Shown: positions 16,231 to 17,526 of the stretch, piece after piece
Layout: every line of letters begins with the position of its first letter
Numbering within the stretch: the stretch's first letter is position 1
NCBI RefSeq assembly: GCF_006345805.1
Contig: NW_021836149.1
Coordinates: forward strand, 62,001 to 126,000
Length of the DNA stretch: 64,000 bases
Reading direction: 5' to 3'
Source: Octopus sinensis
Lineage: Eukaryota
Made by a program: the position numbers and the translations under genes
The notes under the pieces: generated by a model
What the model was told of the DNA's origin: nothing
The model's input: the letters and a program-made list of their open reading frames with translations, nothing else
Database searches by the model: none

Positions 16231-17520
16231 ATTCATAAATGAAGGCAAAGGAAAAAATTTCTAATGCCAAATATGCCGAAAAATTGGACATATTGTCCAT
16301 TAACTGTATAAATTTTTCACAATACACATGCTACTCGAAAAAAGGTCAACAGAAATTTCTAAAAAATTCCATTATTACCATATCGGACCGATTTCAGAGT
16401 TAGCTACTAAGAGCCCTCTCTTCGTCAGTGATACATGTGGCAAAAGAAATAAATGAGATACTTACTCGCACCCATGGAAGAAGAAAATACTAAGTCATGG
16501 GCACAACTAAGTACCCCAAATACATCCAAAATAGAAATACTCCAGCCCATTCGAGGCACGTGCGATTTGAACTGAGACTCTCACAGAGTGATTTAGTTAG
16601 TTCGGAAGCGAACGCGTAAATTTATATCAAATGTGAGGATAAAATTCTTTTCGAAAAAAAATATATTTTCTTGAAAAAAATTTTATCAATGGCCAGCATA
16701 TTAAAAAATACCTTTAACGGTTAAATTTATAAACAATTCATAAATGAGGGCAAAGGAAAAAATTTCTAATGCCAAATATGCCGAAAAATTGGACATATTG
16801 TCCATTAACCATATAATTTTTTCACAATACGCACGCTACTCGAAAAAAGGTCGACAGAAATTTCTAAAAAATTCCATTATTACCATATCGGACCGATTTC
16901 AGAGTTAGCTACTAAGAATTGTTTATAAATTTAACCGGTAAAGGTATTTTTTAATATGCTGGCCATTGATAAAAATTTTTTCGAGAAAATATATTTTTTT
17001 TCGAAAAGAATTTTATCCTCACATTTGATATAAATTTACGCGTTCACTTCCGAACTAACTAAATCACTCTGTGAGAGTCTCAGTTCAAATCGCACGTGCC
17101 TCAAATGGGCTGGAGTATTTCTATTTTGGATGTATTTGGGGAACTTAGTTGTGCCCATGACTTAGTATTTGCTTCTTCCATGGGTGCGAGTAAGTATCTC
17201 ATTTATTTCTTTTGCCACATGTATCACTGACGAAGAGAGGGCTCTTAGTAGCTAATTCTGAAATCGGTAATAATGGAATTTTTTAGAAATTTCTTTCGAC
17301 CTTTTTTTGAGTAGTGTGCGTATTGTGAAAAAATTATATGGTTAATGGATAATATGTCCAATTTTTCGGCATATTTGGCATTAGAAATTTTTTCCTTTGC
17401 CCTCATTTATGAATTGTTTATAAATTTAACCATTAAAGCTATTTTTTAATATGCTGGCCAATGATAAAATTTTTTTCGAGAAAATATTTTTTTTTTCTAA
17501 AAAAATTTTATCCTCACATT

Positions 17521-17526
<6 letters not shown>
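16231..17526. mobile_element. Palindromic, non-coding PLE/retrozyme-like element built from a 505-bp monomer
   Basis: Direct repeat with period 505 (16231 vs 16736), inversion at 16916-16917, inverted copy running to 17526; (TA)n on both sides; hammerhead motif in each monomer. Confidence 0.8.
16380..16434 (-). ncRNA. Minimal type-I hammerhead ribozyme (variant)
   Basis: GUAUCA-CUGACGA-AGAG..18 nt..CUCU-GAAA-UCGG-UC/CGAUAU; helix III only 2 bp; A-C mismatch at base of helix I. Confidence 0.55.

What the first reader, a model, noticed from the sequence alone, without database searches (positions are those of the whole stretch)
16231..17526. 1.3-kb palindrome of a 505-bp tandem monomer with one hammerhead per monomer (retrozyme-like)
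Seen: about 1.36 monomers run leftwards (16917 to 16231) and about 1.2 monomers run rightwards (16916 to 17526). The arms join head-to-head at a 2-nt microhomology inside the hammerhead helix-II loop. There is no ORF, both ends abut (TA)n, and the arms are highly similar (young). The + strand ribozyme (17221-17270) has lost 10 nt covering the cleavage site; the - strand one is complete. Inference: reverse transcription of a circular or oligomeric ~505-nt RNA with a template switch, as proposed for retrozymes or non-autonomous PLEs. The right arm ends ~116 nt further into the monomer, like a Penelope tail. A B-box-like gttcaaatc lies at ~17083.
Basis: partly seen in the sequence, partly recalled or inferred. 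Interest (0 to 1): 0.75.

Follow-up and report, generated by a model that had tools for sequence, protein, structure and literature searches.

The report
Head-to-head Penelope retrozyme, long tail
The 1.3-kb palindrome is two shortened, back-to-back arms of an abundant 505-base repeat that codes for no protein and carries a hammerhead-ribozyme motif; across the family one arm always ends at one fixed point and the other about 110 bases further on, the known footprint likely left when a Penelope-type jumping-gene enzyme starts two copies from one RNA, and a circular RNA stage is possible but untested.

Summary
Observation confirmed. The element is one copy of a multi-copy, ORF-less 505-bp unit with a type I hammerhead (856 genome matches vs 7 control; helix II covaries), sitting in (TA)n. 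It is a non-autonomous Penelope-like element (PLE) of the non-LTR retrozyme kind. Copies end at two fixed points: a short end S and a tail end T. Of 50 head-to-head loci, 38 pair S with T; none pairs S-S or T-T. Opposite arms share private bases (30 vs 2.4 expected), so a palindrome likely arises in one event from one RNA source. The tail is 76-111 nt, not the published 30-40, and varies only through a 19-53-nt hairpin. The junction in the hammerhead loop is incidental, because junctions scatter across the family. A monomer circle is neither shown nor excluded. This copy has one intact hammerhead and is probably a dead end. Young Neptune-type PLEs exist in the genome, but none sampled shares these termini; one possible chimeric palindrome is a lead. 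Inverted arms with a one-sided tail are published, and this scan noted such elements in at least 8 other genomes. New member of a known kind.

The parts
16230..17523 (.). whole head-to-head insertion of a non-autonomous PLE/retrozyme family (505-bp unit)
16212..16229 (.). left (TA)n target remnant
16230..16917 (-). left arm, about 1.36 monomers (M328 to M505, M1-505, M1-5); 3' end at the short site S
16375..16443 (-). complete type I hammerhead motif: bulged helix I, CUGACGA core 16428-16422, extended helix II, GAAA 16395-16392, palindromic mini helix III, predicted cleavage after 16386
16564..16572 (-). B-box-like 9-mer (M168-176) of the left arm; function untested
16880..16917 (-). 3' half of a second hammerhead, cut by the arm junction
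16916..16917 (.). head-to-head junction, 2-nt overlap
16916..17523 (+). right arm, about 1.2 monomers (M1-505 less 10 nt, then M1 to about M113); 3' end at the tail site T
17083..17091 (+). B-box-like 9-mer of the right arm; function untested
17212..17270 (+). broken hammerhead: 10-nt deletion removes the cleavage nucleotide and the proximal 3' strand of helix I
17416..17523 (+). 108-nt one-sided tail (47 nt + 50-nt hairpin + 11 nt)
17463..17512 (+). A/T-rich hairpin of variable length within the tail
17524..17553 (.). right (TA)n target remnant; its first TATA also matches the element's continuation

Best explanation
This is one copy of a multi-copy, ORF-less 505-bp hammerhead-motif repeat lying as two head-to-head arms in a (TA)n microsatellite, likely made in a single insertion event by a Penelope-like (probably Neptune-type) RT/GIY-YIG protein acting in trans. 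Shown: two fixed 3' ends (S and T), an S+T pairing in palindromes, arms longer than one monomer, shared private bases between arms, and scattered junctions with short overlaps. Inferred: the enzyme cuts both strands of (TA)n, and each DNA end primes a cDNA at a TA-like internal site of the same RNA source, one at S and one at T. The two sites are a constant ~58 nt apart once a hairpin is looped out. Both cDNAs run back through the uncleaved or re-ligated hammerhead along a multimeric or circular template, stop at variable points, and are joined head-to-head by microhomology. This copy, with one intact hammerhead, is likely a dead-end product.
For: Multi-copy: 2,577 candidates, 40 scored, 137 matches. 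Hammerhead pattern: 856 matches vs 7 control. End typing of 81 loci: 50 head-to-head and 31 with one typed 3' end (18 S, 9 T, 4 other); 32 automatic S+T, 38 after hand curation, 0 S+S, 0 T+T, 12 with at least one atypical or contig-cut end. Binomial P = 3.6e-12 at p = 0.5. Opposite arms share 30 non-consensus bases in 5,630 sites vs 2.4 expected between loci, and 20 of 22 loci are closer within than between; the window's arms share 5. Junction overlap of 2 nt or more in 14 of 28 junctions vs 18% for random joins (P about 1e-4; BLAST overlaps may include mismatches). Only 1 of 126 5' ends lies within 5 nt of the cleavage site. Tail 76-111 nt, hairpin 19-53 nt, remainder 55-59 nt in 46 of 46 pattern-matched tails. 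Helix II: 3 of 8 pairs change on both sides. Monomer folding z = -5.97. Intact, 98-99% identical RT+GIY-YIG ORFs (781 aa, Neptune-type Cys linker) are in the genome; that family also ends at (TA)n with a short end (20 matches) and a tail of 26-38 nt (5 matches). Published: inverted 5'-truncated copy with one-sided tail (PMC8557442, PMC3846280, passages); both strands cut and extended, with two internal RT start sites bracketing the tail (PMC11167929, main text).
Against: No autonomous PLE sharing the unit's termini was found. Only 1 of 46 GIY-YIG/PLE loci held a substantial family match, as transduced flank, and 3' UTR alignments of the 30 GIY-YIG loci scored near shuffles. Shared bases could also come from gene conversion between arms after insertion, or from one source locus rather than one molecule. 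In the one chimeric locus (L137) both ends are S-type, and a 60-nt AT filler allows two separate insertions. The samples are biased: loci came from best full-monomer hits or from a hammerhead pattern, so crossing the cleavage site (103 of 126 arms) and core conservation are partly built in. The tail pattern required the hairpin ends. In vitro, the anole PLE showed no start-site difference between strands (PMC11167929), so the strict pairing is not explained by that assay. No biochemical or RNA test was possible.
Confidence: 0.78

Rival explanations
1. The template is a self-cleaved, re-ligated 505-nt monomer circle (true circRNA retrozyme) copied by rolling reverse transcription. This is a refinement of the best explanation, not a replacement.
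For: Tandem passes in one arm share private bases (39 vs 2.7 expected, 29 loci). Out-of-register passes share them at a similar rate to in-register ones (8/1,800 and 44/7,204 vs 27/3,470; Fisher P = 0.21). In 7 non-CpG positions covered three or more times, all passes carry the variant. Arms reach 3.6 monomers. The monomer is strongly self-paired (z = -5.97; 65% paired as a circle). Mussel, coral and axolotl retrozymes give circRNAs (PMC7229834, results sections).
Against: L010 has a 28-bp deletion in alternate passes, and in L012 two passes share three variants that the third pass and the other arm lack: a mixed multimer, or later local duplication. A freshly made tandem source locus would give the same sharing. 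PLE tandems arise without hammerheads (Naiads, PMC8557442), and ribozyme cleavage was dispensable in vitro (PMC11167929).
Confidence: 0.4
2. The palindrome comes from one cDNA that folds back or switches template.
For: Short overlaps at junctions; arms share private bases; self-priming was proposed for head-to-head PLE junctions (PMC3846280, discussion passage).
Against: A fold-back would make the arms mirror copies from the junction outward, but the two 5' ends differ by up to hundreds of nt (M328 vs M1 here; 28 junctions). Both outer ends are fixed ends at (TA)n, always of different type.
Confidence: 0.1
3. Two independent insertions landed in the same microsatellite.
For: (TA)n is a shared target; complex loci with two subfamilies exist (L104); L137 may be such a case. 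An earlier scan note reports mismatched arms in another genome (e1-9972483, unchecked).
Against: 0 S+S and 0 T+T among 38 typed pairs; shared private bases; mostly no target DNA at the junction (21 of 28 overlapping or blunt).
Confidence: 0.04
4. The units are only end stubs (pLTRs) of a long autonomous PLE, not a self-standing 505-bp element.
For: Earlier scan notes describe such stubs in other genomes (unchecked); retrozymes resemble PLE pLTRs (bioRxiv 10.64898/2026.07.22.740005).
Against: Arms long enough to pass M116 continue into the previous monomer. Among 20 read-throughs of the subfamily-2 tail end, those that continue in repeat sequence go on in the same unit. No recurrent foreign sequence was seen by eye 255 nt upstream of the hammerhead in 100 listed of 211 matches. 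No PLE ORF adjoins the unit in sense in any fetched locus; L138 has an old RT fragment about 120 nt upstream, separated by a SINE-like piece.
Confidence: 0.06
5. Assembly artefact.
For: No independent read spanning this junction was among those listed.
Against: The arms differ by 2.7% plus a deletion; a second contig has the same structure with 3 substitutions; 50 family loci have their own junctions.
Confidence: 0.02

Closest known systems
Non-LTR retrozymes of metazoans (Cervera and De la Pena 2020, PMC7229834; Li et al. bioRxiv 10.64898/2026.07.22.740005)
   Same: ORF-less, low-GC (33.9%) tandem unit with one type I hammerhead per monomer, strongly self-paired; mini palindromic helix III like the dimer-acting amphibian type; coexists with autonomous PLEs.
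   Different: The 505-nt unit is above the 170-400 nt of the tested circles (within the 51-972 bp range of Li et al.). It is dispersed as 0.5-3.6-mer insertions, mostly head-to-head (50 of 81). No circRNA or cleavage was shown here, and this copy lacks two complete hammerheads in tandem.
EN+ Penelope-like element insertions with inverted 5'-truncated copy and one-sided tail (PMC8557442, PMC3846280); two internal RT start sites of the anole Poseidon element (PMC11167929)
   Same: Partial tandems, head-to-head inverted arm, tail at one end only, AT-rich/(TA)n targets, hammerhead upstream of the priming sites.
   Different: No ORF. The tail is 76-111 nt rather than 30-40 and is lengthened by a variable hairpin. 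The S+T pairing is counted here as strict (38 of 38 typed pairs), and the arms share private bases.
Neptune-type PLE family of this genome (PLE-A; loci L121-L125, L130)
   Same: Ends at (TA)n with a short end and a tailed end; the element's own next bases match the TA target; recent activity.
   Different: No sequence similarity to the 505-bp unit; 26-38-nt tail; two ORFs. Its role as driver is unproven (one possible chimera, L137).
L1 twin priming (recalled, no call)
   Same: Two primings at one cut, inversion, microhomology at the junction.
   Different: There the second priming is at a variable internal site and the two parts do not overlap on the RNA; here both sites are fixed and the arms overlap in RNA coordinates.

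Membership tests
non-LTR retrozyme | tandem unit of a few hundred bp, one type I hammerhead per unit | tested here: met
   505-bp period; core and helix II conserved and covarying. Rfam gave no hammerhead match at E<=1.
non-LTR retrozyme | no protein-coding capacity; GC under 50% | tested here: met
   no ORF of 120 aa or more; consensus GC 33.9%
non-LTR retrozyme | highly self-paired predicted RNA | tested here: met
   z = -5.97, 0 of 100 shuffles as stable; 65% paired as a circle
non-LTR retrozyme | two consecutive complete hammerheads ('active' by Li et al.), this copy | tested here: not met
   one complete, one deleted, one half. In the family, 10 of 81 loci have two on one strand, at least two of them (L016, L019) locus duplications.
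non-LTR retrozyme | self-cleavage of the RNA | not testable with these tools
   needs in-vitro transcription
non-LTR retrozyme | accumulation of monomer circular RNA | not testable with these tools
   only assembled contigs of unrecorded type were available; variant-sharing test equivocal
PLE-type insertion (non-autonomous) | 5' truncation, partial tandem, inverted 5'-truncated arm | tested here: met
PLE-type insertion (non-autonomous) | two 3' ends, tail at one end only | tested here: met
   38 S+T, 0 S+S, 0 T+T of 50 head-to-head loci (hand-curated)
PLE-type insertion (non-autonomous) | tail length 30-40 bp | tested here: not met
   76-111 nt; 55-59 nt without the hairpin
PLE-type insertion (non-autonomous) | AT-rich or microsatellite target | tested here: met
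   typed ends are defined by an adjoining TA run; 27 of 31 single-end loci typed automatically
PLE-type insertion (non-autonomous) | termini shared with an autonomous PLE of the same genome | tested here: inconclusive
   none among 46 PLE loci sampled from 5,029 GIY-YIG candidates, 150 scored; possible chimera L137
autonomous EN+ PLE | RT plus GIY-YIG ORF | tested here: not met
tRNA-derived SINE | tRNA-like head with A and B boxes | tested here: inconclusive
   B-box-like 9-mer 97.8% conserved vs 90.6% and 95.4% in the neighbouring stretches; no tRNA gene called; A box not scanned for; box consensus recalled

The most novel reading that the evidence does not exclude
The family is a genome-scale record of Penelope dual priming. 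A dimeric PLE enzyme primes the two ends of one cut from two sites on one and the same RNA molecule, a 505-nt ribozyme circle. The spacing is read on the folded RNA (about 58 nt once a 19-53-nt hairpin is looped out), and the driver is a Neptune protein that shares no sequence with its passenger.
Probability: 0.25. Interest if true: 0.68.

Novelty: new member of a known kind. Interest (0 to 1): 0.4.

Why it matters
How Penelope-like elements make their inverted arms and one-sided tail is an open question (PMC8557442 calls it undefined; PMC11167929 shows two RT start sites in vitro but no pairing rule). This small family gives countable constraints: strict S+T pairing, arms from one RNA source, and a tail whose length changes only by a hairpin. 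It also gives a short substrate that can be tested with intact RT-endonuclease ORFs from the same genome. It would also be a direct case of a retrozyme moved by PLE machinery, so far argued from co-occurrence and phylogeny. The element class and architecture themselves are known.

Tried and rejected
Rfam scan: no hammerhead match at E<=1, only microsatellite-driven miRNA hits below gathering score. Single-strand folding of the hammerhead alone is not better than shuffles (z -0.9 to +0.6), as expected for a minimal type. Sequencing runs: no RNA holder listed. Family pieces lie in 4 of 4 runs guessed to be RNA, from 4 studies, but these are contigs of unrecorded type and show neither transcription, strand, ends nor circles. 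Four other runs gave no listed record spanning the window's junction; 7,474 pieces were not shown. Hammerhead-guided junction rejected: junctions scatter. Pile-up of 5' ends at the cleavage site not seen (1 of 126; biased sample). Autonomous partner: not found by GIY-YIG sampling, tail read-through pattern (which matched only subfamily 2) or upstream display. L121, which at first looked like an ORF flanked by this unit, is a Neptune copy that co-duplicated host flank. L138 is an insertion near an old RT fragment. No tRNA gene. No look-alike in earlier scan notes by sequence. Rows dropped: 7 duplicate loci and 2 non-family loci before the end count; L016 and L019 before the register test; CpG and homopolymer-adjacent sites in sharing tests; arms under 92-93% identity in sharing and junction tests. 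No paper describing this family or the strict pairing was found in searches (open-access library only). Supplements were not read; the PLE library of PMC8557442 and Repbase-type libraries may already hold the family or its partner.

Full report
Observation. The region 16230-17523 holds a 505-bp direct repeat on the left, a 495-bp repeat on the right and long inverted repeats between them. With the monomer numbered M1-M505 from 16739 on the minus strand, the left arm runs M328 to M505, a full monomer and M1-5, ending at (TA)n. The right arm runs M1-505 less 10 nt and on to about M113, ending at (TA)n. The arms overlap by 2 nt. There is no ORF of 120 aa or more. A second contig carries the same structure with 3 substitutions.

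The hammerhead. Rfam has no match, but the minus arm carries all type I core nucleotides with a bulged helix I, an extended helix II and a palindromic mini helix III. A core pattern matches 856 places in the genome against 7 for the reversed control. In 22 distinct rows, 94.7% of cells pair and 3 helix-II pairs change on both sides; slid controls pair 29-41%. These changes mark a few subfamilies, so they are few events, and the rows were picked by the core pattern. By analogy with amphibian retrozymes (PMC7229834, parts 2-3 of 6 read), it would cleave best as a dimer; this is inference. The plus-strand copy lost 10 nt between two GGT repeats, including the cleavage nucleotide. This locus therefore fails the two-hammerhead criterion for an active retrozyme (bioRxiv 10.64898/2026.07.22.740005, parts 1-3 of 5 read). 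Ten of 81 family loci have two on one strand, at least two of them through locus duplication.

The family. The unit is abundant (2,577 candidates, 40 scored). I mapped 83 non-duplicate loci, 81 of them family members, taken from best full-monomer hits and from the hammerhead pattern. Copies are 5'-truncated and end at one of two points next to a TA run: S (about M5) or T (about M113). At both, the element's own next bases are TA-rich, at T an exact TATA. Thirty-one loci were scored with one 3' end (18 S, 9 T, 4 other) and 50 as head-to-head. The script typed 32 as S+T. By hand I moved L020 (mis-typed T+T), L012, L029, L030, L106 and L117 to S+T, giving 38. Three are S plus an atypical end, 8 are T plus an atypical or contig-cut end, 1 is ambiguous, and none is S+S or T+T (P = 3.6e-12). 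The seven atypical partners of T arms that are not contig-cut lie at M469-M24, close to S. Junction positions scatter over the monomer; 18 of 28 overlap by 1 nt or more, 14 by 2 or more (18% expected), 3 are blunt and 7 have inserts. The window's break in the helix-II loop is thus incidental. Only 1 of 126 5' ends lies within 5 nt of the cleavage site, so ribozyme-cut linear monomers are not the usual template, although the sample favours arms that cross the site.

One event, one source. Opposite arms share 30 non-consensus bases in 5,630 sites where 2.4 are expected from other loci; 20 of 22 loci are closer within than between. Tandem passes within an arm share 39 against 2.7. In-register and out-of-register sharing do not differ significantly (27/3,470 vs 8/1,800, P = 0.21), as a monomer circle predicts. 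However, L010 (alternating 28-bp deletion) and L012 (unlike passes) point to mixed multimers or later duplication. Gene conversion is not excluded. The circle remains open.

The tail. In 46 of 46 pattern-matched tails, total length is 76-111 nt, the hairpin 19-53 nt and the remainder 55-59 nt (the pattern required the hairpin's ends; folds). Published tails are 30-40 bp (PMC8557442 and PMC3846280, passages read), and the genome's own Neptune-type family shows 26-38 nt in 5 matches (a sixth match was plain microsatellite). The T site therefore follows local sequence or folded distance, not linear distance; which of the two is untested.

The driver. The genome holds thousands of GIY-YIG candidates (5,029, 150 scored), including 98-99% identical two-ORF elements with a 781-aa RT-GIY-YIG frame and a Neptune-type Cys linker (clade name from the motif described in PMC8557442, no tree built). 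None of 46 sampled loci shares termini with the unit. L121 only co-duplicated a copy as flank. One locus among 100 listed, L137, is a head-to-head pair of a Neptune 3' arm (98%) and a family arm, both ending at TA runs, with a 60-nt AT filler. It is a lead for trans-mobilisation but may be two insertions.

Mechanism. Shown: anatomy, two ends, pairing, shared bases, scattered junctions. From the literature: a PLE protein cuts and extends both strands, starts internally at two sites that bracket the tail, is predicted to be a dimer and does not need ribozyme cleavage (PMC11167929, parts 1-2 of 4 read). Inferred: one RNP primes the two ends of a cut in (TA)n at S and T; both cDNAs run through a multimeric or circular template and are joined by microhomology. 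Fold-back or template switching does not explain unequal 5' ends together with two fixed, always different outer ends. The B-box-like 9-mer is more conserved than its surroundings, so Pol III transcription is possible but untested (consensus recalled).

Comparison and verdict. It works like a PLE insertion and fits the non-LTR retrozyme kind on all sequence criteria testable at family level; cleavage and circles could not be tested. The host looks like an octopus from recalled repeat motifs, which was not tested. The architecture is in print, and this scan noted similar hammerhead palindromes in at least 8 other genomes (unchecked notes). I found no description of this family, the hairpin-extended tail or the counted pairing in searches; other papers there were seen as listings only, and no supplements were read. 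New member of a known kind; interest 0.4.

Noticed in passing
L137:3480-4079 (G000:C5, near 52748000): Head-to-head pair of a Neptune-type PLE 3' arm (286 nt, 98%) and an arm of the 505-bp family, both with short ends at TA runs and a ~60-nt AT-rich filler between: a possible two-RNA chimera or two insertions.
   Followed up: partly
L121:984-2653 and 6917-8591: A two-ORF Neptune-type PLE flanked by a 1.67-kb direct repeat (99.3%) that includes its 3' end plus host DNA, a subfamily-2 copy of the 505-bp family and a SINE-like repeat: 3' transduction by a PLE.
   Followed up: partly
L121-L125, L130: Young PLE family with two overlapping ORFs (479 aa of unknown family; 781 aa RT+GIY-YIG), 98-99% identical copies, a hammerhead-like motif with an altered core (seen by eye) about 90 nt before its short end, and a 26-38-nt tail.
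   Followed up: partly
window 2066-2395: Older relative (77-83% identity over the end regions) in the same head-to-head form, with a short end on one side, a tail end with a 29-nt hairpin on the other, and an unrelated palindromic centre.
   Followed up: partly
window 28040-28545: Fragment of a PLE reverse transcriptase on the minus strand, 53-54% identical to the two intact families.
   Followed up: no
L045:1300-2200; also G000:C1 87029390, 101234987, 189168430: A different hammerhead-bearing repeat family with a long helix II that shares the same helix-III decamer; no PLE ORF nearby in L045.
   Followed up: no
L010:119-2708: Longest array seen (3.6 monomers on one arm) with a 28-bp deletion in alternate monomers, i.e. 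a dimeric period.
   Followed up: partly
L016, L019, L139, L145: Family insertions duplicated together with their flanks 0.9-3.1 kb apart (local duplication or transduction).
   Followed up: no
window 12883-13308: 141-aa open frame that looks like a mariner/Tc1 transposase fragment (judged by eye, not searched).
   Followed up: no
window 498-548: Short degenerate interstitial (TTAGGG)n array.
   Followed up: no
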